The translations under genes were made by a program, and so were the position numbers. A model generated the notes under the pieces. The model ran no database searches. It saw nothing but the letters and a program-made list of their open reading frames with translations, and was not told where the DNA came from. This document shows positions 30,000 to 47,033 of a stretch of 64,000 bases of DNA, piece after piece. The DNA is from an uncultured Gammaproteobacteria bacterium (GTDB lineage: Bacteria > Pseudomonadota > Gammaproteobacteria > GCA-001735895), in assembly GCA_964196115.1 (NCBI GenBank), contig CAXMRQ010000035.1:8149-72148 (forward strand), in the 5' to 3' direction. Position 1 is the stretch's first letter; each line of letters begins with the position of its first letter.

Positions 30000-31520
30000 A
30001 TGAACTTTTTTTCCTACCTGACAAGCGACGATATCCAATACGTACACCAGGCATCTCTGGAGATCCTCGAAGAAGTTGGCCTGCTGGTTCGTAATGAGAA
30101 AGCAAGGAAGCGATTCGCCGAACACGGTGCGATTGTCGACCATAAAACAGAGATGGTGCGCATCCCATCGGCGGTCGTCGAGAAGTACCGCATGCTGGTG
30201 CCACCGTCTATCACTCTGCGCGGCCGCGACCCGGCTTTCGACGTCACATTCCCGCGCAAACTGCCGGTAATCGCAACGGCCAGTTCGGCGCCGGATATCG
30301 TCGACCCGGTGAGTGGCGTGACACGCCGTTCGAGATCCGATGATATTGCCCGCATTGCTCAATTGATTAACGAGCTTCCAGGCTACGATGTATTCTCGAT
30401 ATCGACGCTCGCCGATGATGCGCCCAAAGATCAGTTCAGTCTGACTCGATTTTACGCCGCGCTGAAAAATTGTGTCAAACCCTGTCGGACATCGGTTTAC
30501 AATATTCGTGAAGCCGAGCAGGTAATCAAACTCGGTGAACTAATCGCAGGGTCGAAACCGGCCTACTGGGAACGTCCTTTCATCAACTTCGGTTATTGCG
30601 CGATTGTTTCGCCTTTGACGATGGACTTCGATAGCACCGAAACGCTGATGTACTTTGCCGAGAAAGGTATCACGGCTTACGGCACGATCGCCCCGATGGG
30701 TGGCTTGAGCACACCACTATCGCTACCGGGCATGCTGGTGATTATGAACGCAGAATGGCTTGCAGCAGCCACATTGGCACAAATGTCGAAGGCTGGAACC
30801 GCTCAAATTTATAACTTTCTGCCCGTGTTTGCCGATATGCGCGATGGTGCCTATGCACCAGGTGCAATAGAAGTCGGGATGATGAATTCGGCCGTATGTC
30901 AGATGGCACGATTTTACAACGTGCCTGCCGGTGGATATCTTGGCCTGACTAACTCCAAAGTCGCCGACGCTCAATCGGGCTTCGAAAAAGGTATGTCACC
31001 ACTGATGGGGGCAATGTCCGGTGCCGATTTCATCGTCATGGGCGGGCTGCAGGATGCGCTGATGTCGTTTGATTTCGGTCAGGCCACAATCGACAATGAG
31101 ATCGCCCTGATGATCAAACGAGTTCGCCAGGGCTTCGGGTTTTCGAAACAAAATGCCTCGTTACAGGAGATCAAGGATACTGGAGCCGCAGGCATGTTCG
31201 CGGCAAATCCGGCAACCCTGGAGCGCATGCACAGCGCAACCATGATGCCGGAGCTTGCCGACAGAAAACTGCGTGAGCATTGGGAACTGGAAGGCAGCTC
31301 GACTATACATCAGCGAGCGCTGAACAAGGCGTTCGACATTCTTTCGGCCCCAAATTCGGCCGCATTTGATGCCGATGTGGATGCTCGAATCCGCGCCGAA
31401 TTCGGAGGAATGGTCGCAGGTGACGCGATGCTTCAGGATGGATGGAAGCGTTTTGATATCGGTAGTAACGTTCCTGTGCGCGAAAGACGTCCCAATCGTC
31501 GTCGTCAGCGACAACACTAA
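30000..31520 (+). CDS. MttB-superfamily (trimethylamine methyltransferase-like, COG5598) protein, non-pyrrolysine type
   Basis: 506 aa. The N-terminus L.SDDI..VH.ASLEILEEVG..V.NE.A...F.EHGA.VD is characteristic of MttB/MtgB-family TIM barrels. The frame is uninterrupted, with no in-frame TAG. Confidence 0.85.
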   Translation: MNFFSYLTSDDIQYVHQASLEILEEVGLLVRNEKARKRFAEHGAIVDHKTEMVRIPSAVVEKYRMLVPPSITLRGRDPAFDVTFPRKLPVIATASSAPDIVDPVSGVTRRSRSDDIARIAQLINELPGYDVFSISTLADDAPKDQFSLTRFYAALKNCVKPCRTSVYNIREAEQVIKLGELIAGSKPAYWERPFINFGYCAIVSPLTMDFDSTETLMYFAEKGITAYGTIAPMGGLSTPLSLPGMLVIMNAEWLAAATLAQMSKAGTAQIYNFLPVFADMRDGAYAPGAIEVGMMNSAVCQMARFYNVPAGGYLGLTNSKVADAQSGFEKGMSPLMGAMSGADFIVMGGLQDALMSFDFGQATIDNEIALMIKRVRQGFGFSKQNASLQEIKDTGAAGMFAANPATLERMHSATMMPELADRKLREHWELEGSSTIHQRALNKAFDILSAPNSAAFDADVDARIRAEFGGMVAGDAMLQDGWKRFDIGSNVPVRERRPNRRRQRQH

Positions 31521-31552
31521 AAAAGCAATAATTAAGATAATCTCAGTAGGAC

Positions 31553-31747
31553 TAGTACTCCTTCAATGATATATCTTAGGATTCAGCCAGTCAGGAAGCG
31601 GTTAGCTGCTAGGCGTGCGACTGTAGGACTAGCCGTAGCTAATTCAAGGGAGCACACCAAAAGTAGGCGCTTTAGGCGACAACCAGATGACCGCTTCCTG
31701 GCTGGCCCGGAGGGAGCGCCCCAACATATATCATGGAAGGAGTACTA
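31553..31747 (+). promoter_or_regulatory. ~195-nt nested inverted-repeat RNA structure that sequesters the SD of the downstream gene (regulatory leader or MITE-like insertion)
   Basis: The outer arms 31553-31574 (TAGTACTCCTTCAATGATATAT) and 31726-31747 (ATATATCATGGAAGGAGTACTA) pair at 21 of 22 positions, and the right arm contains GGAAGGAG, the SD for the ATG at 31750. The inner arms 31586-31602 and 31690-31706 pair at 17 of 17 positions, including one G-U. Confidence 0.5.
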
Positions 31748-31749
31748 AC

Positions 31750-34263
31750 ATGGCGGCATCACTTCCAACCAGCGCGCGCATTGCCATCATTGGCGGAGGC
31801 GTGATAGGTACCGCCATTGCGTATCACCTGACCCGGTCCGGCGAAAAGGATGTCGTGTTGCTTGAAAAGTCACGTCTAACCGAGGGCGCTACCTGGCACG
31901 CGGCCGGGCTGGTCGGCCAATTTCGTTCGCAGCAAAACCTGATGAGCCTGATGAACGACAGCGTCAAATTGTTCGACATTCTGGCCGAAGAAACCGGCCA
32001 GGAAATCGACTGGCACAAATTTGGCAGTCTCAGACTGGCGCAAACCGAAGACCGCTGGAAGGAACTCCTCAAATCTCATTCCGCGGCACAGGCGGTTGGC
32101 TTTGAGATGAATTTGTTAACACCAAACGAAGCGCGTGACTTATACCCGCTAATTGAAACCGATGATTTAGTCGGTGCGGCCTTCATTCCGGCAGACGGGT
32201 ACATCGACCCGAACAGTCTGACTCAGGCCTATGCAAAGGGAGCCAGGGCCAACGGTGGTAGAATTTTCGAGGGCGTGATGGTCAATAATCTGTTACGTGA
32301 TGGTGATCGCATCACTCACCTGGTCACCGAACAAGGTAACATTGAAGTCGAAACAGTGATTAATGCTGCGGGACTCTGGGCGCGTCAGGTCGGCTGGATG
32401 GCAGGGGTGGAAATCCCTGCAGGCGTGGTCGAGCATCAATACCTGGTAACCGAGAAATCCGATCTAATCCCCGCTGGCTTACCGGCGTTGCGCGATCCGG
32501 ATGGGGGATTTTATGCAAAGCCGGAACCCGGTGCGCTAGCCATCGGTGGATGGGAAAAGCAAACCAACAGCGTTAACCCTAAGGAGGGTTTTCCGTGGCA
32601 AAACGAGCGCCATCTGTTTGATGGCGATATGGATCGCCTGTCAGAGTTCTTCGAACCAGCGATACGACGTATTCCTGTCCTCGGCGAACTCGGCATGCGC
32701 ACTATCGTCAATGGACCGATACCCATCTCACCCGATGGCGAACCCATCATAGGACCTGTTCCCGGATTGAGCAATTTCTTTGCCGCCTGCGCATTCACCT
32801 CCGGCATAGCCGCATCGGGCGGAGCCGGTAAAGCTGTCGCTAACTGGATTCTGGAAGGTGATCCGGGACTCGATCTGTGGCCATTCGACATTCGACGCTT
32901 CGGGCCCCTGCACGCCGGTCAGAAATTCCTGCATGACCGCGCGGTTGAAAGCTATAGTAAGTACTATGCGATCCACTGGCCGGGGGAGGAACTGGAGTCA
33001 GCCCGAGGCGTGCGGCGCAGTCCTCTTTATCAAACACTGAAAGATCAGGGCGCGGTGTTCGGATCGAAGTTCGGCTGGGAGCGAGCAAACTGGTTCGCAC
33101 ACGGTGATATCCCGCAGCAGGAAGTCTACGGATTCGACCGGCCACAACAGGCGCTTACGGTCGGTCGCGAGCATTTGGCAGCACGTGAGGGCGTAGTACT
33201 GATCGATATGTCCTCATTTACCAAATTTGAAATCAGTGGGAGCCAGGCCTGTCAGTTCCTGAATTACCTGGCGGTCGCTAATGTCGATAAGGAATCAGGG
33301 GGAGCAACCTATACGCAGTTATGCAACGAGCGAGGTGGGATCGAAGCCGACGTCACCATCATCCGGCGTTCGGAGGATTGCTTCTGGCTGATCACCGGGT
33401 CCGGCCTCGGCGTGCGCGACAGGCACTGGATCGAAAGCCACCTGCACGGTATTTTGGATCGACATATCAATCCGGATCGCTTCAGTAACGAGCAATGGAC
33501 TCGATCAGGTGAGCGATCGATTCGGCCAAACGCCCCCGGTTTCGATAAAGTAGAGCTGCGCGATATTACCTCGGCCTATGGTGTGATTAATCTTGCCGGC
33601 CCATTAGCACGCAAGGTATTACAGAAGGTTTGCGACGAAGACCTGAGCCACGAGGCCTTCCCTTTCATGGCCGCAAGAGACATCAGAATCGGATATGCGC
33701 CTGCCCTGGCCTACCGAGTTACCTATATCGGCGAACTAGGATGGGAACTCTATATTCCATCTGAATACCTTCAGTATGTATACGAAGAGCTACAGCAAGC
33801 TGGCGAGGAATTCGGTATCACCAATATAGGCTACCGGGCGATCGACAGTCTGCGCCTTGAAAAGCGTTATCTCGCCTGGGGCGTCGACATCACCCCCGAC
33901 TACAACCCTTTCGAAGCCGGATTACAGTTTCTTATCGACTGGGATAAGGGCGATTTTATCGGTGCCGAGGCCCTCGCCGAGATCAGGCAACAAGGGGTTC
34001 GGCAAAAACTGGTATGCCTTGCTCTGCATAATCCTTTGCCGGTATTCGGTGGTGAAGCTATTTTTTGCGATGACAAGGTAGTTGCGCAAACCACCAGCGG
34101 CAACTTCGGCTACTCTATTGGCAAGAGCCTGGTGCTCGGGTACCTGCCGGTTGATGTGCTCGACCGCAGTGATTTCGGAGTCGAGGCATTTGGTGAGCGG
34201 ACCCCGGCATCTATAGTGAAAGGCGCGATCTACGATCCGAAGCGGGAAAAAATTCTCTGCTAG
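31750..34263 (+). CDS. Dimethylglycine/sarcosine-dehydrogenase-like flavoprotein (DAO FAD domain fused to GcvT folate-binding aminomethyltransferase domain)
   Basis: From MAASLPTSARIAIIGGGVIGTAIAYHL: Rossmann GGGxxG, ATWHAAGL (the histidine that carries covalent FAD in DMGDH/SARDH), and C-terminal GcvT-like motifs (GYRAIDSLRLEKRY, GGEAI...). The track start at 31687 lies inside the upstream hairpin and lacks an SD. Confidence 0.85.
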   Translation: MAASLPTSARIAIIGGGVIGTAIAYHLTRSGEKDVVLLEKSRLTEGATWHAAGLVGQFRSQQNLMSLMNDSVKLFDILAEETGQEIDWHKFGSLRLAQTEDRWKELLKSHSAAQAVGFEMNLLTPNEARDLYPLIETDDLVGAAFIPADGYIDPNSLTQAYAKGARANGGRIFEGVMVNNLLRDGDRITHLVTEQGNIEVETVINAAGLWARQVGWMAGVEIPAGVVEHQYLVTEKSDLIPAGLPALRDPDGGFYAKPEPGALAIGGWEKQTNSVNPKEGFPWQNERHLFDGDMDRLSEFFEPAIRRIPVLGELGMRTIVNGPIPISPDGEPIIGPVPGLSNFFAACAFTSGIAASGGAGKAVANWILEGDPGLDLWPFDIRRFGPLHAGQKFLHDRAVESYSKYYAIHWPGEELESARGVRRSPLYQTLKDQGAVFGSKFGWERANWFAHGDIPQQEVYGFDRPQQALTVGREHLAAREGVVLIDMSSFTKFEISGSQACQFLNYLAVANVDKESGGATYTQLCNERGGIEADVTIIRRSEDCFWLITGSGLGVRDRHWIESHLHGILDRHINPDRFSNEQWTRSGERSIRPNAPGFDKVELRDITSAYGVINLAGPLARKVLQKVCDEDLSHEAFPFMAARDIRIGYAPALAYRVTYIGELGWELYIPSEYLQYVYEELQQAGEEFGITNIGYRAIDSLRLEKRYLAWGVDITPDYNPFEAGLQFLIDWDKGDFIGAEALAEIRQQGVRQKLVCLALHNPLPVFGGEAIFCDDKVVAQTTSGNFGYSIGKSLVLGYLPVDVLDRSDFGVEAFGERTPASIVKGAIYDPKREKILC

Positions 34264-34322: not shown

Positions 34323-35618
34323 ATGCCATTTGAAGAACTGAATTTTCCTGCGGGCATTCATTTACTGGCTCGCTGGCAGGCCAATGACCCAATGGCGGTA
34401 CGGCGCCTGAAGGATATTTTTGATGCCACGATAAAAGGGCGGTATGACAAAGTTTTCAAGAGGCCAGTACCACAGGATTCGGTGCATGTTGCAGGCCCCG
34501 TAGATCTGATGACGCTAACCATTATGCACCGCCTTTATGGTCTGACATCGGCTGAGTTTTACAAGCAAGACCCGGAACGTTTTGTACGCACCTCGTTAAT
34601 GACGCAAAAATTACTGGGCATGCCCAAGCTTTATATAAGCTGGCCAGTCTATGGGTTTACCGCAGAAACCCTGGGGCAAGAAATGATTTACTCGGATCAA
34701 TACTCCCCCGGCACGGATCCGGATAAACCGTTAGCCAATTCTGACAACTGGCAAGATATTGGGACACCTGCGATGAATACAGGCATCCCCAAATTACTCG
34801 ATCAGATCCTGGCCTGTTATCAGCACTTAACTGGACTCAACCCTGTTTTGCACTTAACCGCAGCTTATAGCCTGGCAGCAGATATCTATGGACAGGAACA
34901 AATAATCACCGCCCTGACCCATGAACCCGAATTTGTGAATAAATTCCTCGACCACCTGGCAGACACCGTTTTGAAACCCTGGATGGATCATTTTTTCAAC
35001 CAGTACCCCAACGGATGGGTCGAACTAAGCGATGCTTCAGGATCGCCTTTTTTTATCGGCCCGCAAAACTGTAAAAACGTCGCTATTCGGTCGACTCAGC
35101 GGCTAATCGCTGCAAATCCATGGGGGAAACGCGTCTATGATGCCAATTACCGTGGCGATTACGTAACCCAGGCAAACAAAAGAAATTCTTCGTCATCGAG
35201 GCGTAGGAACCCCAGAAAAACCGACCCTGAGCACCCAAGCCTAGTTGAATTATTTGATATAAAAAATAGCGTTTGCCCTGATTATGTGATTCGTCTCGCC
35301 GAAGATCGCACAGCTGTTAGTTTTTATGTGGAGCAGGCAATTAGGTGCAATATCCCACTGTTTATGGGCATTGGCGCTACCCTGATCGACCGTAACAGCA
35401 TTGCCGATCTGGAAATCGCAAAACAGGAAATCAAGGCCATGGCCTGTGAATATACAGAGGCGATTAAGACGGTTGCCAAATCCATCGAGAAGAATGGTTA
35501 TAATTTAAGAGTACCCCCCTGGCCAGGCACAATTTATTTTGAAGACATCAGCGCTGAGTCCAACTTTGATTTAATCGAAATTATTATCGACACCGTACTA
35601 AAGCAGGGTGCACTGTGA
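34323..35618 (+). CDS. Conserved-looking hypothetical protein; possible URO-D/MtaA-like (MT2-type) TIM-barrel resemblance
   Basis: 431 aa with no motif I can assign confidently. The spacing of segments (..AEFYKQDPERFV...Q.LLG.........YGFTAETLGQE.......P......; ....GLNPVLHLTAAYSLAADIYGQEQIITALTHEPEFVNKFLDHLADTVL..W) is reminiscent of the uroporphyrinogen-decarboxylase/methylcobamide methyltransferase family. It contains a basic low-complexity insertion, NKRNSSSSRRRNPRKTDPEH. Confidence 0.55.
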   Translation: MPFEELNFPAGIHLLARWQANDPMAVRRLKDIFDATIKGRYDKVFKRPVPQDSVHVAGPVDLMTLTIMHRLYGLTSAEFYKQDPERFVRTSLMTQKLLGMPKLYISWPVYGFTAETLGQEMIYSDQYSPGTDPDKPLANSDNWQDIGTPAMNTGIPKLLDQILACYQHLTGLNPVLHLTAAYSLAADIYGQEQIITALTHEPEFVNKFLDHLADTVLKPWMDHFFNQYPNGWVELSDASGSPFFIGPQNCKNVAIRSTQRLIAANPWGKRVYDANYRGDYVTQANKRNSSSSRRRNPRKTDPEHPSLVELFDIKNSVCPDYVIRLAEDRTAVSFYVEQAIRCNIPLFMGIGATLIDRNSIADLEIAKQEIKAMACEYTEAIKTVAKSIEKNGYNLRVPPWPGTIYFEDISAESNFDLIEIIIDTVLKQGAL

Positions 35619-35634
35619 ATCGCAGTATCTGTTA

Positions 35635-36123
35635 ATGGACAAGCTATTGGTCAGCGCCTGCCTGCTCGGCGACCCGGTTCGTTACGACGGACGAAGCAAG
35701 TCATTCGAAAACACCGAGTTGCAGGAACTGGTAAAGCAGGACCGAGTCATAGCATTCTGCCCCGAAGTGGCGAGTGGATTGCCAACCCCACGGGATTCAG
35801 CCGAGATTCAACAGGGCGATGGAGTTGCCGTGATCGATAAGCTAGGCAAGGTCACTACCGTCAATGGCGATGATGTAACTGATTTTTTTCTGGGAGGTGC
35901 CAATCTGGCGCTTAAATTATGCCAGCAGCACCAGATATCGGTCGCTATTTTGACTGAATTCAGTCCTTCCTGCGGTAGCAAGCAAATTTACGATGGCAGT
36001 TTTAGCAGGACCAAGCGCTGGGGAATTGGCGTAACCACCGCCCTGCTAAAACGACACGGTATCGCTATTTTCAGTCAATACCAGATCGGTGCTGCAATAA
36101 ACAGTTTAGCCAACAGAAATTAA
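35635..36123 (+). CDS. DUF523 protein (TudS/YbbK-like [4Fe-4S] family)
   Basis: From MDKLLVSACLLGDPVRYDG: the SACLLG..VRYDG, FCPEV.GGLPTPR-like (AFCPEVASGLPTPR) and SPSCGS motifs define DUF523. Confidence 0.7.
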   Translation: MDKLLVSACLLGDPVRYDGRSKSFENTELQELVKQDRVIAFCPEVASGLPTPRDSAEIQQGDGVAVIDKLGKVTTVNGDDVTDFFLGGANLALKLCQQHQISVAILTEFSPSCGSKQIYDGSFSRTKRWGIGVTTALLKRHGIAIFSQYQIGAAINSLANRN

Positions 36124-36137
36124 AAACAGGAACCTTT

Positions 36138-36704
36138 ATGAATAATTATTCTTTGAATCGCGATACTGTAGTTGATTTCATACTCGATCTGTTCAGACGT
36201 CGAGGCGCTGAAGAGTACATGGGTGAACCAGTGAGCATGGCGCAACACATGGAACAAACTGCAGCCTGTGCCTTGGCCGATGGCGCTTCCGACGACCTGG
36301 TGATCGCCGCTCTGCTACATGACATCGGCCATTTTGTCGGCAATTTTCCAATCGACGCTCTCGAAAACGGCGTCGATAACCTGCACGAAGAGGCTGGCGC
36401 CAATTTTCTCCAGGCGTTCTATCCAGTCGCAGTCACTGAACCAATTCGTTTGCACGTGGCTGCAAAGAAATATTTGTGCGCTACCGACGAGCAATACTTT
36501 GCCTGTCTTTCAGAGGCTTCAGTTCAATCCTTGCAGGTTCAAGGTGGTCCGATGACAGAAGCCGAAGTCAAAAAGTTTAAATCTAGCCCTTATCATCAGT
36601 CTGCTGTTCAGGTAAGACGTTATGATGATGATGGCAAGGTTGCAGGCCTGGATATTAAATCGGTTGAAAACTACAGGCACAAGCTAGAATCGTTATTATT
36701 ATAA
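36138..36704 (+). CDS. HD-domain protein of the PhnZ/TmpB type (phosphonate-associated HD, putative diiron oxygenase)
   Basis: 188 aa. Y.GEPVS...H..Q.A..A...GA.D.LV.AALLHDIGH, HEEAGANFL, RLHVAAKKYL, LQVQGGPM...E...F and VRRYDD.GKV match, from memory, the PhnZ-like 'phosphonate degradation associated HD' family in size and metal-ligand spacing (H, HD, H, H, D). Confidence 0.55.
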   Translation: MNNYSLNRDTVVDFILDLFRRRGAEEYMGEPVSMAQHMEQTAACALADGASDDLVIAALLHDIGHFVGNFPIDALENGVDNLHEEAGANFLQAFYPVAVTEPIRLHVAAKKYLCATDEQYFACLSEASVQSLQVQGGPMTEAEVKKFKSSPYHQSAVQVRRYDDDGKVAGLDIKSVENYRHKLESLLL

Positions 36705-36867
36705 ATTATAAGAAGCAAAGCTTTCTATGCTGGTATGTCACCTCGCTTACGACGACCAGACGGACCACCAGGTAAAACACTAAAAGTCATCAAATGATTC
36801 AACTAAAAAGGAATCAATCCATCAACGCGAGACAGCATGTCAGTCATTAGTAATGTGTGTAAATTAG

Positions 36868-37023
36868 CAGCAGATTGTTAATGCAGAAGGCGATGTTTGC
36901 CTACCGTTATTTTTAAGCGATGTTCTTGCGCGTAAAAAGAATGTGATGACCCCGGCGGTGATCGGGAATAACTGGGAACTAGATGGTGAAAAAAACGCCG
37001 AACGCTGGTGGTTTGCCTGGTAA
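36868..37023 (+). pseudogene. Remnant of a family-5 ABC substrate-binding protein gene (C-terminal ~50 codons, in-frame stop)
   Basis: The translation QQIVNAEGDVCLPLF*ADVLARKKNVMTPAVIGNNWELDGEKNAERWWFAW* aligns with the C-termini of the intact paralogs (CQV(L/I)...GG.L.PMFANYIMAL.K.V.H....AGN.D.DG.KA.ERWWFA*). It is on the opposite strand and has an internal TAA at 36913. Confidence 0.7.
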
Positions 37024-37052
37024 ACTTTACTGTTAACAGAACAGTATTAAAG

Positions 37053-37076
37053 GGGTAGCAATGCTGCCCTTTTTTT
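37053..37076 (+). terminator. Rho-independent terminator after the SBP remnant
   Basis: GGGTAGC-AAT-GCTGCCC forms a 7-bp stem (one G-U), followed by TTTTTTT. Confidence 0.55.
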
Positions 37077-37276: not shown

Positions 37277-38203
37277 TCAGAAATTCAGTTCAACCCAATA
37301 GGGTCGATGATCCGATCCATCCGCGGCTTGATCAACCCAGGCACGTTCAACCTGTCGGGCCAGGCCCGGGGAGAGGAAGCAGTAGTCCAGGCATAAACCA
37401 TGGCCGGGTTTACGTTCGGGCGGATCAGGCCACCAACTGGCGCGATCATCCTGTCCCTGCCTGGTGCTAGTCCAACTGTCGACGAAGCCATCAAGATGCG
37501 CAACTCGACCATAGCAGGGGTCTAACGCACCCACCATTTTTTCGTATTCAGCGGTATCTGGCAGGCTGTTAAAGTCGCCCATCACGACAGCCTCCCCGGG
37601 CATTTGCGGTGGGGTCTCATCATTACTCCAGTTCAGCTCAGCCATATGCCTGGCCTCGACCGGATCAACATTCTCGTCCACCTCACCACCGGTCCAGGCA
37701 CCGCCGCTCACCTGAGCATTTCGGTGGAACTCTAATATCCTGTCAATCTGCATCAGGCGTTCACGCGAGGAGACTGCAGATAGATGCAGCGAATAAATTC
37801 TAAGGGGACCCGACGGTGTATCTATCACGCATTCAATAGCTCCCGTATCCATGTTCAAACTGTCCACCGTACCCAACTTTGGCAAAACAATTAAACGAGA
37901 CATACTAATGGGCCAGCGAGAAAGCACCATGGGACCAAATTGGCGTCGCCGATTGAGCACGATGCCTTCATCGTTGCGCGTACTGGCATCCACATCGAAT
38001 GCTGAGCCATATGCCCAATAGAACTCCTGTAAATGTTTTCCAAGAATTTCAGGCTGATCAGTCATGCCGCTGTGCAGCCAGAAACGCTCTACCTCCTGCA
38101 AAGAGATAATGTCCGCGTCGCGTACGGTCTCGGCGATGCGCCCAAGATCTATTTGCTGATCGAGCCCCAGGCCGAAGCGAATATTATAAGTAACAAGCTT
38201 CAT
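37277..38203 (-). CDS. Endonuclease/exonuclease/phosphatase (EEP) family protein
   Basis: From MKLVTYNIRFGLG: N-terminal (L/V).YNI, SLQEV, and C-terminal SDHRPY are the EEP catalytic motifs. It lies 108 bp downstream of the ABC ATPase on the same strand. Confidence 0.75.
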   Translation of the reverse strand: MKLVTYNIRFGLGLDQQIDLGRIAETVRDADIISLQEVERFWLHSGMTDQPEILGKHLQEFYWAYGSAFDVDASTRNDEGIVLNRRRQFGPMVLSRWPISMSRLIVLPKLGTVDSLNMDTGAIECVIDTPSGPLRIYSLHLSAVSSRERLMQIDRILEFHRNAQVSGGAWTGGEVDENVDPVEARHMAELNWSNDETPPQMPGEAVVMGDFNSLPDTAEYEKMVGALDPCYGRVAHLDGFVDSWTSTRQGQDDRASWWPDPPERKPGHGLCLDYCFLSPGLARQVERAWVDQAADGSDHRPYWVELNF

Positions 38204-38347
38204 ATTTCCCTTCAAACAAATGCGTCTTTGAGTTCGCAACCTGGTAAAAATTGGGGTTCTGATTCCACCCGCACTGATATGATCTTAGCACGAACACAAA
38301 ATAAAGGAGGCAATATACAAGTGTAAGCGTATGAACTTTTACCCTGG

Positions 38348-39988
38348 TTATGTGGGTGGCTGGTCTTGCGCACGTTCCTTCAATAACCCGGTTAGCCAGT
38401 CAGGATCCATTTCCGGAACTGAAGATAATAATAGCTTGGTATAGTCAGGATAAGGGGGCGCCAGGATTTCACTTTTCATCCCCTGTTCGACGACTCTTCC
38501 TTCCAGCATTACCACAATTTGATCGGAGATAGCTTTCACCGTAGCGATGTCGTGGGTGATGAAAATATAGGTCAGACCCAGTTCTCTTTGCAGGCGTAGT
38601 AATAATTCCAGAATGCCTTTCTGTACGATCTGGTCGAGCGCTGATGTGACTTCGTCACATATAATTAATTCAGGATTAGCAGCCAGGGCACGCGCAATAC
38701 AAATACGTTGTTTCTGGCCACCGGAAAGTTCGGCTGGCAGTCTGTTGATAAAGCTTTCATCGAGTTCGATCATTTCCATTAATTCCAACAATCGCTGATC
38801 ACGTTCCCTGCCTTTCAAACCTAGATAAAACTCGAGTGGTCTGCCGATGATGTCACGGATTGTTTGTCGCGGATTCATCGCCGTATCGGCCATTTGATAA
38901 ATCATCTGAATCTTTTGCAGTTGATCGACACTACGCTCTTTTAATGCCGGCGGCAGGGGTTTACCGTTATATAAGATCTGCCCCTTGCTCGGTGGTAACA
39001 ATCCGGTGATAGCGCGGGCAGCCGTCGACTTACCCGAACCGGATTCGCCCACTATCGCCACCGTGTGTCCGCGTGGCACCTCGATCGAAACATCATCCAG
39101 TACCTTGGCACTACCCGTGTAACTGGCATCAATGTGGTCAACTCTGAGAATGATATCCTCCGACTCCTCTTCCTGTTTTTCGATAGAGCGAACCGACCAT
39201 AACGATTTGGTGTATTCTTTTTCCGGATTTGCCAGCATTGTTCGGGTATCGGCGTCTTCGATGGTTTCTCCGTAACGCAAAACTTTGATCACATCGGCCA
39301 TCTGCGCGACCACCGCTAAATCGTGAGTAATATAAATTGCGGCGGTGTGGTATTGCTCGACAATTTCTCGCATCGAGGCTAATACTTCTACCTGGGTTGT
39401 AACATCGAGCGCAGTCGTAGGTTCATCGAAAATAATTAAATCAGGTCGCGGTGACATTGCCATCGCGGTCATCACGCGTTGTAGCTGACCGCCAGAAACC
39501 TGGTGCGGATAGCGGTCTCCAATTGAGTCTGGATTCGGCAGTTGCAGATCGCGATATAGAGCTCGAGCATCCGCTTTGGCTTCACTTTCAGACTTTATGC
39601 CATGGCGAACAGCCGACTCAACGGTTTGATTGATGAGCCTATGCGAGGGATTGAAAGACGCTGCGGCGGACTGGGCGACATAGGCGATGCGCGAACCGCG
39701 TAGCTTGCGCTTATCATCTTCCGAAGCTTTGATTAAATCGATGCCATCGAAGATGATACTGCCGCCATTGATTTTACAGCCTGGTTTTGCAAACCCCATC
39801 GCTGCCAAACCCAGAGTTGATTTTCCTGCACCGGATTCACCGATCAGGCCCATGATTTCACCGCGCTTCAATACAACATCAACGCCTTTTATAATCTCAT
39901 GCCAACGGTCGTCACTATAGCCATCGATTACGATGCCGTGCATTTCCAGCAGGATATCGCCTTTTTGCCCTTTTTTATCGGTACTCAT
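38348..39988 (-). CDS. ABC transporter ATP-binding protein with two fused NBDs (DppD/DppF-type)
   Basis: 546 aa. Two Walker A motifs (GESGAGKST, GESGSGKST), two signature motifs (VSGGQLQR, LSGGQKQR) and two Walker B motifs (LIIFDEPT, LIICDEVT). Confidence 0.9.
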   Translation of the reverse strand: MSTDKKGQKGDILLEMHGIVIDGYSDDRWHEIIKGVDVVLKRGEIMGLIGESGAGKSTLGLAAMGFAKPGCKINGGSIIFDGIDLIKASEDDKRKLRGSRIAYVAQSAAASFNPSHRLINQTVESAVRHGIKSESEAKADARALYRDLQLPNPDSIGDRYPHQVSGGQLQRVMTAMAMSPRPDLIIFDEPTTALDVTTQVEVLASMREIVEQYHTAAIYITHDLAVVAQMADVIKVLRYGETIEDADTRTMLANPEKEYTKSLWSVRSIEKQEEESEDIILRVDHIDASYTGSAKVLDDVSIEVPRGHTVAIVGESGSGKSTAARAITGLLPPSKGQILYNGKPLPPALKERSVDQLQKIQMIYQMADTAMNPRQTIRDIIGRPLEFYLGLKGRERDQRLLELMEMIELDESFINRLPAELSGGQKQRICIARALAANPELIICDEVTSALDQIVQKGILELLLRLQRELGLTYIFITHDIATVKAISDQIVVMLEGRVVEQGMKSEILAPPYPDYTKLLLSSVPEMDPDWLTGLLKERAQDQPPT

Positions 39989-39991
39989 GCT

Positions 39992-40915
39992 TTAATGCTC
40001 ATCTTTTAGGCCGCTGGTTTTATGCAGGAACCAGTCGACTACGAAATTGACTGCGACGGTCAACAGTGCAATCGCCGCTGCAGGCAACATCGGTGTCATG
40101 GCCGCGGTTAAATCATATTCGGCAAATTGAATCAGACCGGCGGTTTCACGAACCATCGAGCCCCAGTCAGCGGTCGGCGGCTGAATACCAACGCCGAGAA
40201 AAGACAATGCCGCAATGGTCAGGAATACGAAGCAAAAGCGTAATCCAAACTCGACGATTAATGGCGGCAGAATATTGGGTAATATTTCTCTGCGCATAAC
40301 CCAGCTTAAACCTTCACCTCTGAGCCTGGCGGCTTCTACATAATCCATCACCACCACATTGAGCGACACCGCTCGAGTCACACGAAAAACACGGGTGGCG
40401 TCGAGTACCGCGATAATCAAGATCAAATTCGTCGCAGTTGCGCCAAACATGGATATCAGGATCAGCGCGAAAATCAGGCTGGGTATGGCCATTAAAACAT
40501 CGACTGAGCGGCTGATAAGGTCATCCAGCCATCCCCGGCTGAGAGCTGCGGTAATGCCGAGACTTCCGCCGATTAAAAATGCGAGCACGGTGGTCGCAAA
40601 GGCGATGCCGACTGTATTTCGAGCGCCGTAAATAAGCCTTGAGAGAACGTCGCGGCCCAATTGATCGGTACCGAACATGAATTCGTCGCTCCAGGGTGCG
40701 TAGGACAGATCAAATATTTCGGCCTCGCCATACGGTGCCAGTAGCGGCGCGAATAGCGCGAAGAATACATAAATCAATATAACGACCATGCCGAACAGCG
40801 CCGTCGGTGGCGCGGATTTAAGACCACGCCAGATATTTTCTAGCAGTGTTCGACGAGCTTTGAGCATGCTGACTTCGCCCGCTGCTGAATAGCCCTGTTC
40901 TCCACCATTGCTCAT
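39992..40915 (-). CDS. ABC transporter permease (DppC/OppC-like)
   Basis: 307 aa, 6 TM helices, with an EAA-like loop (YVEAARLRGEG). Confidence 0.9.
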   Translation of the reverse strand: MSNGGEQGYSAAGEVSMLKARRTLLENIWRGLKSAPPTALFGMVVILIYVFFALFAPLLAPYGEAEIFDLSYAPWSDEFMFGTDQLGRDVLSRLIYGARNTVGIAFATTVLAFLIGGSLGITAALSRGWLDDLISRSVDVLMAIPSLIFALILISMFGATATNLILIIAVLDATRVFRVTRAVSLNVVVMDYVEAARLRGEGLSWVMRREILPNILPPLIVEFGLRFCFVFLTIAALSFLGVGIQPPTADWGSMVRETAGLIQFAEYDLTAAMTPMLPAAAIALLTVAVNFVVDWFLHKTSGLKDEH

Positions 40916-40925
40916 GAATTAGTTC

Positions 40926-41909
40926 TCATCTTGGATGTAATAGTCTGGGGTTGGTAACAATCGAAATAATGTCCGCAAACAAGTTGAGTAATATATAAGT
41001 CGCTGCAAAAATCATCGCGCACCCCTGCACTACCGGCACGTCTCGAGTGGTTACTGCGTCAACCATTAACTGGCCGACTCCCGGGTAGACAAAGACTACC
41101 TCAACCACGACAACACCGACCACCAGATAGGCTAGGTTGAACGCGATGACAGTGACAATCGGAGCCCAGGCATTTGGCAACGCATGCTGCAAAATAACCT
41201 GCATTTTCGAAACTCCTTTAAGATTGGCCATTTCAATATAGGGGCTCGCCATCAGGTTGATGATCGCTGCCCGGGTCTGGCGCATCATATGGGCTATTAT
41301 GACTAGTGTCAGCGTCAGTGCCGGCAAAGCGGATAAATAAACCTGTTCCCAGAATGTCGCATCCGAGCTGATGTTAGCCAGTGACGGAAAAACTTTGGTA
41401 AACGAAGATAAAAATAGTATTAACATGTATGCGACGAAAAATTCGGGAAACGAAATTGTGGTCAAGGTCAGCGCGTTGACCACTCGATCATAGATTGAAT
41501 TTCGATAGAGTGCGGCTGTTATGCCGAGAAACAACGCGAGTGGAACTGAAATGATTGCAGCCATAGACGCCAGAAATAAGGTGTTAGCCAGGCGCGGCGC
41601 TATTAAATCGATAACAGCCCGCGAACGATCTGCGCCACCCGAAGATCCTCTTCCGGAAAATGAATTACCCATATCCCCGGTCAGTATGCCACCCAACCAG
41701 TCTAGATAGCGTTCATGCATCGGCAGATCCAATCCGAGCTCAGTTCGAAATGCCTGGACGGTTTCGGGTAATGCCGCCTGACCCAGGACCGCCTGGCCAA
41801 AGTCGCCCGGCAAAAATTCGATCGAGCTGAATATAATCAACGAGACCACAAACAACGTGACTAAGCCCAGGCCAAGTCTTTGCAGTATGGTGCGAACTAT
41901 CGGATGCAC
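40926..41909 (-). CDS. ABC transporter permease (DppB/OppB-like)
   Basis: 327 aa. The N-terminus I..RL......L...S...F and the EAA-like loop (PYIEMANLKGVS) match the BPD_transp_1 pattern. Confidence 0.9.
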   Translation of the reverse strand: MHPIVRTILQRLGLGLVTLFVVSLIIFSSIEFLPGDFGQAVLGQAALPETVQAFRTELGLDLPMHERYLDWLGGILTGDMGNSFSGRGSSGGADRSRAVIDLIAPRLANTLFLASMAAIISVPLALFLGITAALYRNSIYDRVVNALTLTTISFPEFFVAYMLILFLSSFTKVFPSLANISSDATFWEQVYLSALPALTLTLVIIAHMMRQTRAAIINLMASPYIEMANLKGVSKMQVILQHALPNAWAPIVTVIAFNLAYLVVGVVVVEVVFVYPGVGQLMVDAVTTRDVPVVQGCAMIFAATYILLNLFADIISIVTNPRLLHPR

Positions 41910-42022
41910 AATGCTCCCCTCCTCAAACCAGCAGGCCTATTCGATTCCCGCTAAATAGCAGCCAGAGTAATAATAATTATAGAGAGGTAATGGACCGCAG
42001 CCCATTACCTCAGTCCTTCAGT

Positions 42023-43624
42023 TTAAGCAAACCACCAACGTTCGATGGCCTTGTTGCCATCCTTATCCCAGTTGCCCGCAACCTGGCCATGCGCGACTTT
42101 CTTGTTAAGCGCCATGATGTAGTTGGCAAACATCGGGGCCAACGTGCCGCCGTCGTCACTAATCAGCACCTGGCACTCGTAGTACATCTCGCGACGTTTA
42201 CTGGTATCGAGTTCGGACCGCGCCGCAATGACTAGCTTGTTGAAGCGATCGGCCGCCGGACCTTTGGTCCAGGCCGTGTCGTTCCATTTACTTTCAGCCA
42301 CATAGGCCGCAGTAAACATCCAGTCCTCGGTCGGACGGCCACCCCAGTAGCAGGCGGCCCAGGGTTTTTTGTTCCAGACGTTTGACCAGTAGCCATCCTT
42401 GGGCTCACGTATCACGTTGATATTGACGCCAGCCTTAGCCGCAGAATCCTTTATCAACAGCGCCGCGTCGACCGCGCCGGAAAATGCCGCTTCCGAAGTG
42501 CCGAGATCGATGGGTGTATTCTCCATGCCAGCTTTTTTGATATGGTAGCGGGCCTTGTCCGGATCGTATTTGCGTTGCGGCATTTCACCGTTATGATACG
42601 GATTCGCTGTCGAAATCGGGTGATCGTTGCCGATTGCGCCGTGTCCGAGCAGGATTTTCTTCAACAGCTGTTCACGATCAACCGACAGCTTGAGCGCCAT
42701 GCGCACATCATAGTTATCAAACGGTGCTGCATTGACGCGCATCGGGAAGGTGTAGTGTAAGGTACCCGTAGTCTCCAGGATTTTAAGATTCGGATTACGA
42801 CTAATCAAGTGCACGGTTTTTGGATCGACCCGGTCGATCATGTCTACTTCCTGATTCATGGCCGCACTTTGCCGCGATGTGACATCGACTAGCGATAACA
42901 GTTCGATTTCATCGAAATGCGCTCGCCCGGCCTTCCAGTAGTTCGGATTACGTTTGAAGGTGGCGCGAACGCCCGGCTCGAATTTCTCGATCATGTAACC
43001 ACCGGTGCCAAAACCCGCCTGCCAATCCATGCTGCCACCTTTTTCCGGCATAATTGCAAAGTGATAATCGCTGAGGATGAATGGGAAGTCGGCGTTACCG
43101 CCGCTGAGCGTGAAGGTAACCTCGTGGCTGCCATTCTTTTTCATGCTCACTAGCGGATCCAGCAGCGATTTGCCGGCCGATTTGGAATCTTCGCCTCGAT
43201 GATGATTGATCGACGCGATGACATCATCTGCGGTCATCGACTTGCCGTTGTGAAATTCGACCCCCTTGCGTAGTTTGATCACCCAGGTTTTGGCGTCCTT
43301 GCTGGCCTCGAAGCTCTCCGCCAGTTCGGGTATCAGTTGCCCGGTATTGGCAACCTCGAACAGATGATTGGAATAAGCAAAAACGGTGTCGTTCATAAAA
43401 CCGTTTTCATGCGTTCCGGGATCCAGCGTGTCAGTCGTCGAACCATGCCCAACACCCAGTCTAAACTTGCCACCCTTTTTGGGTGTGGCCGCATGCACGG
43501 ATTGCGAAAGCAGGGTAGTAGCGAACGGCGCCGCCAGGCCCAGTGCGCCCGCACGCTTGATGAATTCACGGCGATCTAGCTTACCTTCTATTGCTAATTT
43601 TTCTAACGCTTTGATATCGGTCAT
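42023..43624 (-). CDS. ABC substrate-binding protein, family 5 (peptide/opine/nickel type), Tat signal; paralog 1
   Basis: 533 aa. The twin-arginine signal LDRREFIKRAGALGLAAPFATTLLSQSVHA is followed by the SBP_bac_5 pattern (LA.S.E.S.D.KTW..KLR.GV.FHNG). It is first in the operon with the permeases and ATPase. Confidence 0.9.
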   Translation of the reverse strand: MTDIKALEKLAIEGKLDRREFIKRAGALGLAAPFATTLLSQSVHAATPKKGGKFRLGVGHGSTTDTLDPGTHENGFMNDTVFAYSNHLFEVANTGQLIPELAESFEASKDAKTWVIKLRKGVEFHNGKSMTADDVIASINHHRGEDSKSAGKSLLDPLVSMKKNGSHEVTFTLSGGNADFPFILSDYHFAIMPEKGGSMDWQAGFGTGGYMIEKFEPGVRATFKRNPNYWKAGRAHFDEIELLSLVDVTSRQSAAMNQEVDMIDRVDPKTVHLISRNPNLKILETTGTLHYTFPMRVNAAPFDNYDVRMALKLSVDREQLLKKILLGHGAIGNDHPISTANPYHNGEMPQRKYDPDKARYHIKKAGMENTPIDLGTSEAAFSGAVDAALLIKDSAAKAGVNINVIREPKDGYWSNVWNKKPWAACYWGGRPTEDWMFTAAYVAESKWNDTAWTKGPAADRFNKLVIAARSELDTSKRREMYYECQVLISDDGGTLAPMFANYIMALNKKVAHGQVAGNWDKDGNKAIERWWFA

Positions 43625-43829
43625 TGGAATTTCCTCGATTTATAATATTTAGGTTGTCCGTAGATAATTTCCTTTGCAATTTGTTTACTTATTATTTTTG
43701 AAAACTAATTATTAAAACAACGCAGTAGTACTGATATAACACGAAACAGCCTGAAAGATCAATCTTAAGGATGGGCTAATTAATTCCCGTTGCCAGATTA
43801 TGCTGTCGGCTCGTAGCACGTTTGGTTGA
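43625..43829 (-). repeat. Duplicated promoter/5'-leader region, copy upstream of SBP paralog 1
   Basis: About 205 bp are alignable with 45593-45797. They are near-identical next to the start codon (CATTGGAAT(T/G)TCCTCGATTTATAATATTTAGGTTGTCCGTAGATA) and diverge further upstream. Confidence 0.8.
43723..43751 (-). promoter_or_regulatory. Candidate sigma70 promoter for SBP paralog 1 operon
   Basis: On the minus strand, TTGATC-17 nt-TTATAT lies ~110 nt upstream of the start codon. It is conserved in the second copy. Confidence 0.4.
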
Positions 43830-43935
43830 AAGGCCACAAAAAGGCAAAATGGGACGTTACCCTTTACGATTTTTCTAAGCCTCGATTCATACGGGCACGG
43901 AGACTAAATTGGAGGATCTAAAAGGGTAGTGTCCC

Positions 43936-43975
43936 CAATGTGAGACAATGGGCTTTAGCCCATTGTCTCACATTG
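43936..43975 (-). terminator. Perfect 19-bp hairpin downstream of SBP paralog 2
   Basis: CAATGTGAGACAATGGGCT-TT-AGCCCATTGTCTCACATTG begins 15 nt after the paralog-2 stop. It has no clean U-run, so it may act as a terminator, a stabiliser, or both. Confidence 0.55.
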
Positions 43976-43990
43976 CCTCAAGTTGACTGA

Positions 43991-46319: not shown

Positions 46320-47033
46320 ATGTCCTATAAAGGTATCGTCTTCGATAAAGACGGAACCCTGATCGACTTTAACTCAACCTGGCTGCCGGTATATCACTAC
46401 GCCGCACTCGAATTTGCGAACCATGACCAGAAACTCGCGGATGAATTACTGGGGTGTCACGGTTTTGATCATAGTAGCGGTCGTTTTACCGGTGGATCGC
46501 TACTCGCCGCGGGCAATAATCATCAAATTGCTATCGCATGGTCGTCACAATTGCCGAATTCAGACGACGATGAAAAACTGCAAGCAATGAGTACACGGTT
46601 AAATCAGATATTCCAGCAACAGGGCGCACTACACGCGACACCAGTCAATAATTTGCAATCGACTCTACGCACACTGAAACAGGCTGGTATAAAACTGGGC
46701 GTCGCTACCAGTGATAGTTATCAGGGAATTCATAACACCTTACAATCTTTTGACGTGTTATCCGAGTTTGAGTTTCTATGCGGTTACGACAGTGGCCACG
46801 GCACTAAACCCGAACCGGGCATGGTGCTCGCATTTTGTGAAGCAACCTCGTTAGCGCCATCCGAAGTCATTGTAGTCGGCGATAATAGCCACGATATGGA
46901 AATGGGCAAGAGTGCGGCGGCGGGTCTTTGTGTTGGTGTGCTAACCGGCACCAGCACGCGAGCGGAACTTGAAGCGCTGGCCGACGAAGTTTTCGAAGAT
47001 ATCGGTGGATTAATTACCCTCTTCGACGGGTAA
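46320..47033 (+). CDS. HAD-superfamily hydrolase, subfamily IA
   Basis: 237 aa. Motif I is VFDKDGTLID, motif II is GVATSD, and motifs III/IV are K.....VGDN.HD. The substrate is not inferable. Confidence 0.75.
   Translation: MSYKGIVFDKDGTLIDFNSTWLPVYHYAALEFANHDQKLADELLGCHGFDHSSGRFTGGSLLAAGNNHQIAIAWSSQLPNSDDDEKLQAMSTRLNQIFQQQGALHATPVNNLQSTLRTLKQAGIKLGVATSDSYQGIHNTLQSFDVLSEFEFLCGYDSGHGTKPEPGMVLAFCEATSLAPSEVIVVGDNSHDMEMGKSAAAGLCVGVLTGTSTRAELEALADEVFEDIGGLITLFDG

What the first reader, a model, noticed from the sequence alone, without database searches (positions are those of the whole stretch)
36138..36704. PhnZ/TmpB-like HD-domain protein without its usual 2-oxoglutarate dioxygenase partner
The sequence has the His / His-Asp / His / His / Asp spacing and the ~190-aa size I associate with mixed-valent diiron HD oxygenases (MAQHMEQ; AALLHDIGH; HEEAGANFL; RLHVAAKKYL; RRYDDDGK). 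It has no phn operon context (no phnCDE, phnY*, phnX or phnW in the window). It is instead embedded in a methylamine-type cluster and is followed by a decayed binding-protein gene. Either the hydroxylase is encoded elsewhere, or the substrate arrives already hydroxylated, or this HD enzyme has a different substrate.
Basis: partly seen in the sequence, partly recalled or inferred. Interest (0 to 1): 0.6.

Follow-up and report, generated by a model that had tools for sequence, protein, structure and literature searches.

The report
Orphan TmpB phosphonate oxygenase in betaine operon
This gene encodes an intact iron enzyme of the TmpB type, which splits a carbon-phosphorus bond to give glycine betaine and phosphate. 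Its usual helper gene tmpA has been deleted, and it is now wired into an operon that breaks down glycine betaine, so it is a known kind of enzyme in an unusual partner-less setting.

Summary
Window 36138-36704 (+) is an intact 188-aa HD protein. It has all six diiron ligands (H37, H61, D62, H83, H106, D163), the YxxE substrate loop and the fifth His. Its only solved relatives are TmpB (E 3e-50, 48% identity) and PhnZ (E 2e-27). No 2OG dioxygenase or phn gene lies in the 64 kb.

Comparison with about 165 related loci shows it is the orthologue of tmpB at a conserved chromosomal site. The ancestral order there is DUF523-tmpB-tmpA-HAD. Among 123 informative relatives, 88 have tmpA adjacent. The window's nearest relatives mostly lack it: 11 of 13 with HD identity of 77% or more.

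Partner-less copies keep every ligand, have no stop codons and show dN/dS of about 0.1. The window copy differs at 1 of 64 columns that are invariant in partnered copies.

The "methylamine" neighbours (LysR, MtgB-like MttB, dimethylglycine dehydrogenase-like, UroD/MtaA-fold protein) plausibly consume TmpB's product, glycine betaine. The same cassette sits directly upstream of tmpB in several relatives.

The source of the hydroxylated substrate is unresolved: a tmpA elsewhere in the genome, or uptake from outside. This is a new member of a known family and moderately interesting.

The parts
36138..36704 (+). tmpB orthologue: an HD-domain mixed-valent diiron oxygenase of 188 aa. Ligands are H37, H61, D62, H83, H106 and D163. 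The YxxE loop is Y27/E30 and the fifth His is H65.
35608..36123 (+). DUF523 / 2-thiouracil-desulfurase-family gene. It overlaps the upstream gene by 11 nt and ends 14 nt before the HD gene. It is the ancestral left neighbour of tmpB in this lineage.
34323..35618 (+). UroD/MtaA-fold protein of unknown function (431 aa). It is repeatedly adjacent to tmpB or tmpA-tmpB in other genomes.
31687..34263 (+). Dimethylglycine-dehydrogenase-like enzyme, with FAD oxidoreductase and GcvT folate-binding domains.
30000..31520 (+). Non-pyrrolysine MttB-family methyltransferase. Its best solved relative is glycine betaine methyltransferase MtgB.
   Evidence: PMC12478193
29001..29885 (-). Divergent LysR-family regulator, GcvA-like. 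It travels with the MttB cassette in relatives.
36868..37023 (+). Remnant of a family-5 solute-binding-protein gene: the last 50 codons plus the stop. It occupies the place where tmpA lies in relative L168.
37049..37073 (+). Terminator-like hairpin with 11 pairs and a T-run, just after the remnant. It is the likely end of the operon transcript.
   Evidence: consensus scan only
37277..38239 (-). Endonuclease/exonuclease/phosphatase-family gene, the last gene of the convergent ABC operon. It is decayed to fragments in L168.
38348..45592 (-). Opp/Dpp-type ABC importer: ATPase, two permeases and two family-5 binding proteins. Homologues lie beside tmpB or tmpA in L168, L084/L085 and L032.
46320..47033 (+). 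HAD-family hydrolase, the ancestral right-hand neighbour of tmpB-tmpA. Here it is separated from tmpB by the 9.6-kb segment that holds the binding-protein remnant, the EEP gene and the ABC importer; L168 suggests that the ABC-EEP operon beside tmpB-tmpA is ancestral in this sub-lineage rather than a recent insertion.

Best explanation
The gene is the orthologue of tmpB. TmpB is the HD-domain mixed-valent Fe(II)/Fe(III) oxygenase that uses O2 to cleave the C-P bond of (R)-1-hydroxy-2-(trimethylammonio)ethylphosphonate, giving glycine betaine and phosphate.

It sits at its ancestral chromosomal position (hemF-CxxCxxCC-...-DUF523-tmpB-tmpA-HAD-rhodanese). In this lineage the hydroxylase gene tmpA, which lay immediately downstream, has been deleted. 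A LysR-MttB(MtgB-like)-dimethylglycine dehydrogenase-UroD-like cassette has been inserted immediately upstream.

tmpB is now probably co-transcribed with genes that demethylate its product, glycine betaine. An Opp-type ABC importer that accompanies tmpB/tmpA in other genomes lies on its other side.

Shown here: family placement, intact active-site residues, synteny and loss of tmpA, purifying selection, and recurrence of the architecture.

Inferred: the substrate and product, co-transcription, and that the hydroxylated substrate is supplied either by a hydroxylase encoded outside the window or by uptake of already hydroxylated phosphonate.
For: Family placement:
- The PDB phmmer search returns only TmpB 6NPA (E 3e-50, 81/169 identical) and PhnZ (E 2e-27, 59/181 identical).
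- NCBIfam ranks TmpB at 237 bits above Phn-HD and GmPhnZ1.
- TmpA-partnered relatives score the same against the TmpB model, 232-295 bits.
- The L003 neighbour passes the TmpA equivalog cut-off, 435.8 against 400.

Active site:
- The six ligands, E30 and H65 are invariant in 76 aligned sequences, and Y27 is conserved.
- The YxxE loop and ligand roles are described in PMC8177086.
- The window protein differs at 1 of 64 columns that are invariant in 23 partnered relatives, F95Y.

Synteny and loss of tmpA:
- The backbone DUF523-HD-TmpA-HAD is seen in dozens of loci.
- L168 (HD 82% identical) has the same flanks as the window with tmpA intact between HD and the ABC operon.
- Tally of relatives: 88 with tmpA adjacent, about 35 without. 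The tmpA-less state is concentrated in the window's nearest relatives.

Selection: dN/dS is about 0.09-0.11 between the window and tmpA-less relatives, in the same range as partnered pairs, 0.07-0.31. No relative has an internal stop.

Link to glycine betaine catabolism:
- The cassette lies directly upstream of HD in L012, L017, L037, L041, L084-L087, L090, L091 and L136, with a 4-nt UroD-like/HD overlap in L084 and L012.
- The TmpB product is glycine betaine (PMC10574752).
- MttB-family MtgB enzymes demethylate glycine betaine in aerobic marine bacteria (PMC12478193), and the best solved relative of the window's MttB is MtgB.

Reality of the arrangement: the junction is found in independent metagenomes.
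Against: - No hydroxylase is present to make the substrate, so the pathway as known is incomplete within the window.
- The protein is below the NCBIfam TmpB equivalog cut-off (237 against 300).
- No activity, expression or cofactor data exist, and no RNA runs were found.
- The HD tree is poorly resolved, with bootstrap support of 15-61%. The number and timing of tmpA losses, and hence how much of the dN/dS signal accrued after the loss, is uncertain.
- The MttB enzyme's substrate is not established. TMA-type and glycine-betaine-type structures score almost equally.
- No corrinoid protein gene is in the cluster.
Confidence: 0.6

Rival explanations
1. The pathway is complete but split. A tmpA, or a promiscuous gamma-butyrobetaine-hydroxylase-like dioxygenase, is encoded elsewhere in the genome and supplies OH-TMAEP, so this is an ordinary TmpA/TmpB system with unlinked genes.
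For: - tmpB is kept under purifying selection with an unchanged active site.
- GBBH_N+TauD genes also occur in other quaternary-amine clusters without an adjacent HD gene, for example beside carnitine genes in L082.
- Only 64 kb of the genome could be examined.
Against: - tmpA is within about 60 nt of tmpB in nearly all partnered loci, so unlinking would be unusual.
- None of the tmpA-less loci shows a TmpA homologue within 10 kb.
Confidence: 0.3
2. The enzyme scavenges phosphonate that is already hydroxylated, such as OH-TMAEP or a related 1-hydroxyalkylphosphonate. Other sediment organisms would release it, or it would come from hydroxylated phosphonolipid head groups. The neighbouring ABC system would import it, and it would be cleaved directly to glycine betaine and phosphate.
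For: - tmpA has been lost repeatedly while tmpB is retained.
- Homologues of the adjacent Opp-type importer lie next to tmpB/tmpA in L032, L168 and L084.
- Phosphodiesterase or EEP genes lie beside tmpB in several loci.
- There is precedent for an orphan PhnZ-like HD protein proposed to act on free 1-hydroxy-2-aminoethylphosphonate (PMC11203657).
Against: - No report of free OH-TMAEP in nature was found in the papers read.
- The transporter's ligand is unknown.
- L168 has the same transporter together with tmpA.
Confidence: 0.25
3. The enzyme has shifted to a different substrate within quaternary-amine catabolism, for example another alpha-hydroxy phosphonate or alpha-hydroxy acid, and no longer needs TmpA.
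For: - It is tightly embedded, with translational coupling, in the MttB-DMGDH-UroD-like operon, and only in tmpA-less loci: 0 of 83 partnered loci have the cassette directly upstream.
- HD oxygenases cleave C-C as well as C-P bonds (PMC8177086, PMC12186529).
Against: - Only one conservative change (F95Y) occurs at 64 columns invariant in partnered orthologues.
- No residue systematically separates tmpA-less copies from partnered copies.
Confidence: 0.1
4. The gene is a functionless relic left after loss of tmpA and is on its way to decay.
For: - The partner is lost.
- The locus is a rearrangement hotspot with other gene remnants: the SBP fragment, EEP fragments in L168 and a frameshifted tmpA in L001.
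Against: - The ORF is intact, and so is every one of the roughly 35 tmpA-less relatives, with ligands kept.
- dN/dS is about 0.1 with saturated dS.
- It has a Shine-Dalgarno site and operon-like spacing.
Confidence: 0.05

Closest known systems
TmpB of Leisingera caerulea (PDB 6NPA), (R)-1-hydroxy-2-trimethylaminoethylphosphonate oxygenase
   Same: - Same size and the same H...HD...H...H...D ligand set, YxxE loop and fifth His.
- 48% identity over 169 ungapped residues.
- It is the best match in both the PDB and NCBIfam.
- Close orthologues are paired with a gene that passes the TmpA model.
   Different: - No tmpA next to it.
- It scores below the NCBIfam equivalog cut-off, as do all gammaproteobacterial relatives.
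- It lies inside a glycine-betaine demethylation operon rather than a two-gene tmpAB operon.
PhnZ (PDB 4MLM), (R)-2-amino-1-hydroxyethylphosphonate oxygenase working with PhnY*
   Same: Same fold family, same ligands and same type of C-P cleavage chemistry.
   Different: - Only 33% identity.
- TIGR03276 score of 196.5 is below the 214.6 cut-off.
- It falls as the outgroup in the tree.
- The window has no phnY*.
GmPhnZ1 of Gimesia maris, hydroxymethylphosphonate dioxygenase
   Same: It is also an HD mixed-valent diiron oxygenase acting on a 1-hydroxyphosphonate.
   Different: It is the weakest of the three matches, at 163.5 bits against a cut-off of 300.
Achromobacter 'PhnHD', an orphan PhnZ-like HD protein beside phosphonatase operons (PMC11203657)
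   Same: It is a PhnZ/TmpB-like HD protein with full ligands and no adjacent 2OG hydroxylase, proposed to take a pre-hydroxylated substrate.
   Different: - It is a distant relative, about 30-34% identical to PhnZ, TmpB and GmPhnZ.
- Its context is different (phnX, HpnW).
- It has not been shown to derive from a partnered ancestor.
MtgB-based aerobic glycine betaine demethylation (PMC12478193)
   Same: The neighbouring MttB-family gene and the downstream dimethylglycine-oxidising enzyme match the described co-location of glycine-betaine demethylation genes in marine Gammaproteobacteria.
   Different: - No mtgC or mtgD genes are present in the cluster.
- An uncharacterised UroD/MtaA-fold protein and tmpB are present instead.

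Membership tests
TmpB (OH-TMAEP oxygenase, HD mixed-valent diiron oxygenase) | Six metal ligands in the order H...HD...H...H...D | tested here: met
   H37, H61, D62, H83, H106 and D163 align to the TmpB and PhnZ ligands and are invariant in 76 relatives.
TmpB (OH-TMAEP oxygenase, HD mixed-valent diiron oxygenase) | YxxE substrate-gating loop and the fifth conserved His of the TIGR03276 clade | tested here: met
   Y27-M-G-E30 and H65 (HDIGH) are present. The feature definitions come from PMC8177086 and PMC11203657.
TmpB (OH-TMAEP oxygenase, HD mixed-valent diiron oxygenase) | Closer to characterised TmpB than to PhnZ, GmPhnZ1 or HD phosphohydrolases | tested here: met
   PDB: TmpB E 3e-50 against PhnZ 2e-27, with no other HD protein at E <= 0.01. 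NCBIfam: 237 > 196 > 163 bits. In the NJ tree Leisingera TmpB falls inside the ingroup with PhnZ as outgroup.
TmpB (OH-TMAEP oxygenase, HD mixed-valent diiron oxygenase) | Score at or above the NCBIfam equivalog cut-off (NF049941, 300 bits) | tested here: not met
   The window protein scores 237.3 bits. Seven relatives that do have an adjacent TmpA also score 232-295 bits, so the cut-off excludes the whole gammaproteobacterial branch.
TmpB (OH-TMAEP oxygenase, HD mixed-valent diiron oxygenase) | Encoded next to the 2OG dioxygenase TmpA | tested here: not met
   There is no TmpA in the 64 kb. The feature is met in 88 of about 123 informative relatives, including L168, which shares the window's flanks.
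TmpB (OH-TMAEP oxygenase, HD mixed-valent diiron oxygenase) | Fe(II)/Fe(III) cofactor and O2-dependent conversion of (R)-OH-TMAEP to glycine betaine and phosphate | not testable with these tools
   This needs enzyme assays and EPR or Moessbauer spectroscopy.
PhnZ (OH-AEP oxygenase) | TIGR03276 score at or above the cut-off, and a phnY* partner | tested here: not met
   196.5 bits against 214.6. Identity is 33%. No phnY* is present.
Nucleotidase-type HD phosphohydrolases (YfbR, YpgQ and relatives) | Sequence similarity to those families, with a mononuclear H...HD...D site | tested here: not met
   No such chain is matched in the PDB at E <= 0.01. No NCBIfam hit other than the three phosphonate oxygenase models appears at E <= 0.01. 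The extra His ligands are present.

The most novel reading that the evidence does not exclude
A whole clade of marine-sediment Gammaproteobacteria has discarded the hydroxylase TmpA but kept TmpB under selection and fused it into a glycine-betaine catabolic operon. The enzyme would then live on a 1-hydroxy-phosphonate that the cell does not make itself. That substrate would be a cross-fed or environmentally supplied intermediate, imported by the adjacent Opp-type ABC system. Alternatively the enzyme has acquired a new hydroxylated quaternary-amine substrate. Either case would reveal an unrecognised pool of hydroxylated phosphonates, or a 'public goods' step, in the marine phosphorus and osmolyte cycles.
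Probability: 0.3. Interest if true: 0.65.

Novelty: new member of a known kind. Interest (0 to 1): 0.4.

Why it matters
Surveys of marine phosphonate use count phnZ/tmpB-like genes as markers of a two-enzyme pathway. Here a sizeable, selectively maintained group of tmpB genes lacks the first enzyme. It is about a quarter of the relatives sampled and nearly all of the window's closest ones. If these organisms lack tmpA genome-wide, such counts mis-state who can use TMAEP, and hydroxylated phosphonates must circulate between cells.

The physical linkage of tmpB to glycine-betaine demethylation genes also supports, from genome context alone, the idea that C-P cleavage feeds the osmolyte and one-carbon pool as well as supplying phosphate.

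The linkage also flags an uncharacterised UroD/MtaA-fold family as part of that metabolism.

Tried and rejected
- **tmpA remnants.** I looked in the 572-nt gap after the HD gene and in the whole window by tblastn and found none. The gap instead holds a binding-protein gene remnant.
- **The UroD-like protein as a substitute hydroxylase.** Its predicted fold matches MtaA-type methyltransferases and UroD, not an oxygenase, so I rejected this.
- **The HAD neighbour as phosphonatase PhnX.** It scores only 49-56 bits against cut-offs of about 220, so I rejected this.
- **RNA evidence for expression.** No runs are available.
- **The primary TmpA/TmpB paper** (Rajakovich et al. 2019, PMC6503667). It is not held, so substrate-pocket residues could not be taken from it. 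I used conservation against partnered orthologues instead.
- **Counting independent tmpA losses with the HD tree.** Bootstrap support is too low, 15-61%. Only the coarse statement survives that losses occur in several distant groups (L037 against L031, L038 against L022, the L017 group and the window group).
- **Looking for a tmpA of this genome elsewhere in the source metagenomes by laying contigs on L168's tmpA.** L168 is only about 76% identical to the window at the nucleotide level, below the tool's 80% floor, so I did not run this.
- **PDB searches of the EEP protein and the binding protein.** They gave no clue to the ligand.
- **The promoter/terminator scan.** It is not above shuffled expectation, so co-transcription rests on gene spacing only.

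Full report
**1. The observation**

Window 36138-36704 (+) is a 188-aa ORF. An AGGA lies 6 nt before the ATG, and the ORF starts 14 nt after the stop of the preceding DUF523 gene.

- Pfam finds an HD domain at 26.2 bits.
- NCBIfam matches three phosphonate-oxygenase models over the full length: TmpB at 237.3 bits (cut-off 300), Phn-HD TIGR03276 at 196.5 (cut-off 214.6) and GmPhnZ1 at 163.5 (cut-off 300).
- A phmmer search of all PDB sequences returns only TmpB 6NPA (E 3.3e-50) and PhnZ (E 2e-27). No nucleotidase-type HD protein is matched.
- Identity is 81/169 to TmpB and 59/181 to PhnZ.
- H37, H61, D62, H83, H106 and D163 align with the six diiron ligands. Y27/E30 form the YxxE loop and H65 is the fifth His typical of this clade. 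The definitions come from PMC8177086 and PMC11203657.

**2. Absence of the partner**

I scanned 59 of the 69 window ORFs of 120 aa or more with Pfam, and some also with NCBIfam; the rest, mostly overlapping or antisense ORFs, were not scanned. There is no TauD, PhyH or GBBH-type dioxygenase and no phnCDE, phnW, phnX or phnY. tblastn with TmpA proteins taken from relatives finds nothing in the 64 kb.

The 572-nt gap after the HD gene holds, on the + strand at 36868-37023, 51 codons that align to the C-terminal 50 residues of the two family-5 binding proteins encoded at 42023-45592. A terminator-like hairpin follows at 37049-37073.

The stretch 34300-37300 occurs in seven marine-sediment metagenome runs from three studies. 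Single contigs from two of those studies span the HD-gap-EEP junction.

**3. What it is: comparative evidence**

I collected about 165 loci carrying relatives, from genomes and metagenomes. I mapped the window's proteins and a bona fide TmpA onto them. The L003 neighbour used as TmpA scores 435.8 bits against the 400-bit TmpA cut-off.

A conserved backbone emerges in this gammaproteobacterial group: def-LysM-dprA-smg-topA-tsaC-hemF-CxxCxxCC-(ceramidase-like)-DUF523-HD-TmpA-HAD-rhodanese-EamA-ADH. The window has exactly this backbone (17-24.6 kb and 46.3-50 kb), with the HD gene in its ancestral place.

Among non-redundant full-length relatives, 88 have tmpA adjacent, about 35 do not, and 13 are uninformative. 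The tmpA-less state is concentrated near the window (with L168 added):

| HD identity to the window | tmpA absent | tmpA present |
|---|---|---|
| 77% or more | 11 | 2 (L001, carrying one frameshift; and L168) |
| 70-76% | 14 | 9 |
| 59-69% | 12 | 49 |

L168 (HD 82% identical) is decisive for the history. It has the window's left flank (NAT, ceramidase-like, DUF899, AHSA1, ArsR, GST, DUF523) and its right flank (the Opp-type ABC operon). An intact 379-aa tmpA lies between the HD gene and the ABC operon, only fragments of the EEP gene remain, and there is no MttB cassette. In the window, the tmpA position is occupied by the binding-protein remnant.

**4. Is the partner-less copy still an enzyme?**

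- All tmpA-less copies are intact, with no internal stops.
- All nine catalytic and gating residues are kept, except for a Y27H change in L038 and L161.
- The window protein departs from 23 tmpA-partnered close relatives at 1 of 64 invariant columns, F95Y. Leave-one-out values for the partnered sequences themselves are 0-9, with a mean of 1.0.
- Its score against the TmpB model (237.3 bits) is the same as that of partnered relatives, 232-239 bits.
- dN/dS between the window and the tmpA-less relatives L005 and L012 is 0.11 and 0.09, with dS saturated. Partnered pairs give 0.07-0.31.

The gene is therefore maintained by selection, and nothing indicates a change of substrate.

One caveat applies. 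The HD tree is weakly supported, with bootstrap values of 15-61%. The number of independent tmpA losses is only roughly 'several'. How much of the divergence happened after the loss is inferred by parsimony.

**5. The 'methylamine' neighbours**

Upstream on the same strand lie three genes:
- a non-pyrrolysine MttB-family methyltransferase (30000-31520), whose best solved relatives are the glycine betaine methyltransferases 9YCE and 2QNE;
- a dimethylglycine-dehydrogenase-like FAD/GcvT enzyme (31687-34263);
- a 431-aa UroD/MtaA-fold protein (34323-35618).

A divergent GcvA-like LysR regulator lies at 29001-29885. Gene spacings are 59 nt, an 11-nt overlap, and 14 nt, which suggests one transcript running through to the HD gene. 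The cassette has higher G+C, 0.54 against about 0.47.

TmpB's product is glycine betaine (PMC10574752). MttB-family MtgB enzymes start glycine-betaine demethylation in aerobic marine bacteria, with the later demethylation genes often co-located (PMC12478193). The cluster therefore reads as a pathway: OH-TMAEP to glycine betaine plus phosphate, then to dimethylglycine, then to sarcosine.

The same cassette lies directly upstream of the HD gene in L012, L017, L037, L041, L084-L087, L090, L091 and L136. In L084 and L012 the UroD-like and HD genes overlap by 4 nt. In my sample the cassette was never directly upstream in the 83 partnered loci.

The UroD-like gene also sits beside tmpA-tmpB in SUP05/Thioglobus loci and in L009.

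On the other side, homologues of the convergent Opp-type ABC importer lie next to tmpA/tmpB in L032 (52-57% identity), L168 and L084/L085. This makes it a candidate importer for the phosphonate or a conjugate of it.

**6. Mechanism proposed**

By homology, Fe1 binds the substrate's C1 alkoxide and phosphonate. Tyr27 leaves Fe2 when Glu30 engages the substrate. O2 binds Fe2, the resulting superoxo species abstracts the C1 hydrogen, and four-electron oxidation releases phosphate and the carboxylate, glycine betaine (mechanism summarised in PMC8177086).

What is not explained is the origin of the 1-hydroxy substrate. The evidence leaves two live options. One is a hydroxylase encoded outside the window. 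The other is uptake of hydroxylated phosphonate. A new substrate is disfavoured, and a dead relic.

**7. Comparison with known systems and novelty**

It works like TmpB and belongs to its family by every sequence feature tested. The two exceptions are the narrow NCBIfam cut-off, which partnered orthologues also miss, and gene adjacency.

Orphan PhnZ-like HD proteins have been noted before, for example in Achromobacter (PMC11203657). This is therefore a new member of a known kind. Two aspects appear not to have been described in the papers I could read:
- a demonstrable, repeated and selectively tolerated loss of the hydroxylase from an ancestral tmpB-tmpA pair;
- capture of tmpB by a glycine-betaine operon.

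Interest is moderate at 0.4. It would rise if closed genomes of this clade prove to lack any TmpA-like gene.

Noticed in passing
window 34323-35618 (+): A highly conserved 431-aa protein family with 1095 homologues, all unnamed. It has no PDB sequence match. Its predicted fold (pLDDT 84) is closest to an MtaA-type methyltransferase (4AY8) and to UroD. H177, C250 and C318 are invariant, which looks like a possible zinc site. It recurs beside tmpA-tmpB, MttB-DMGDH, gcvPH and carnitine genes, so it is probably an unrecognised player in quaternary-amine or glycine-betaine catabolism.
   Followed up: partly
L025 518-2281; L076 from 10001; protein P0276: HD and TmpA are encoded as one ORF (587, 502 and 587 aa). 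These are bacterial TmpB-TmpA fusions reminiscent of the fungal PhnY-PhnZ fusion PhoF.
   Followed up: no
L168 7392-7642 compared with window 37277-38239: In the tmpA-containing relative L168 the EEP-family gene is reduced to fragments. In the window the EEP gene is intact and tmpA is gone. The two genes are reciprocally present at the same junction.
   Followed up: partly
L001 10570-11689: The tmpA of a 77%-identical relative is split by a single frameshift near codon 87. This is either an early pseudogene or an assembly error.
   Followed up: partly
window 30000-34000: G+C is 0.535-0.548 here against 0.45-0.49 in the flanks. The MttB-DMGDH cassette is compositionally distinct, consistent with insertion into a rearrangement hotspot between hemF/CxxCxxCC and HAD.
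   Followed up: no
window 38348-45592 (-): This is an Opp/Dpp-type ABC importer with two tandem paralogous family-5 binding proteins. Homologous transporters lie next to tmpA/tmpB in L032, L168 and L084/L085. The ligand is unknown.
   Followed up: partly
window 25858-26637 (+) and the same position in many relatives: A ceramidase-like membrane protein (Pfam PF05875, below threshold) is a conserved neighbour upstream of DUF523-tmpB in the backbone. Together with the phosphodiesterase or EEP genes near tmpB, this hints at phosphonolipid head groups as the source of substrate. This is speculative.
   Followed up: no
window 57466-58080 (-): A 204-aa ORF matches only the first third of a Peripla_BP_6 binding protein. 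It is probably another truncated binding-protein gene.
   Followed up: no
window 36409: Contigs from two metagenome runs (X3, X5) diverge from the window sequence at this point inside the HD gene. This indicates a co-occurring strain variant.
   Followed up: no
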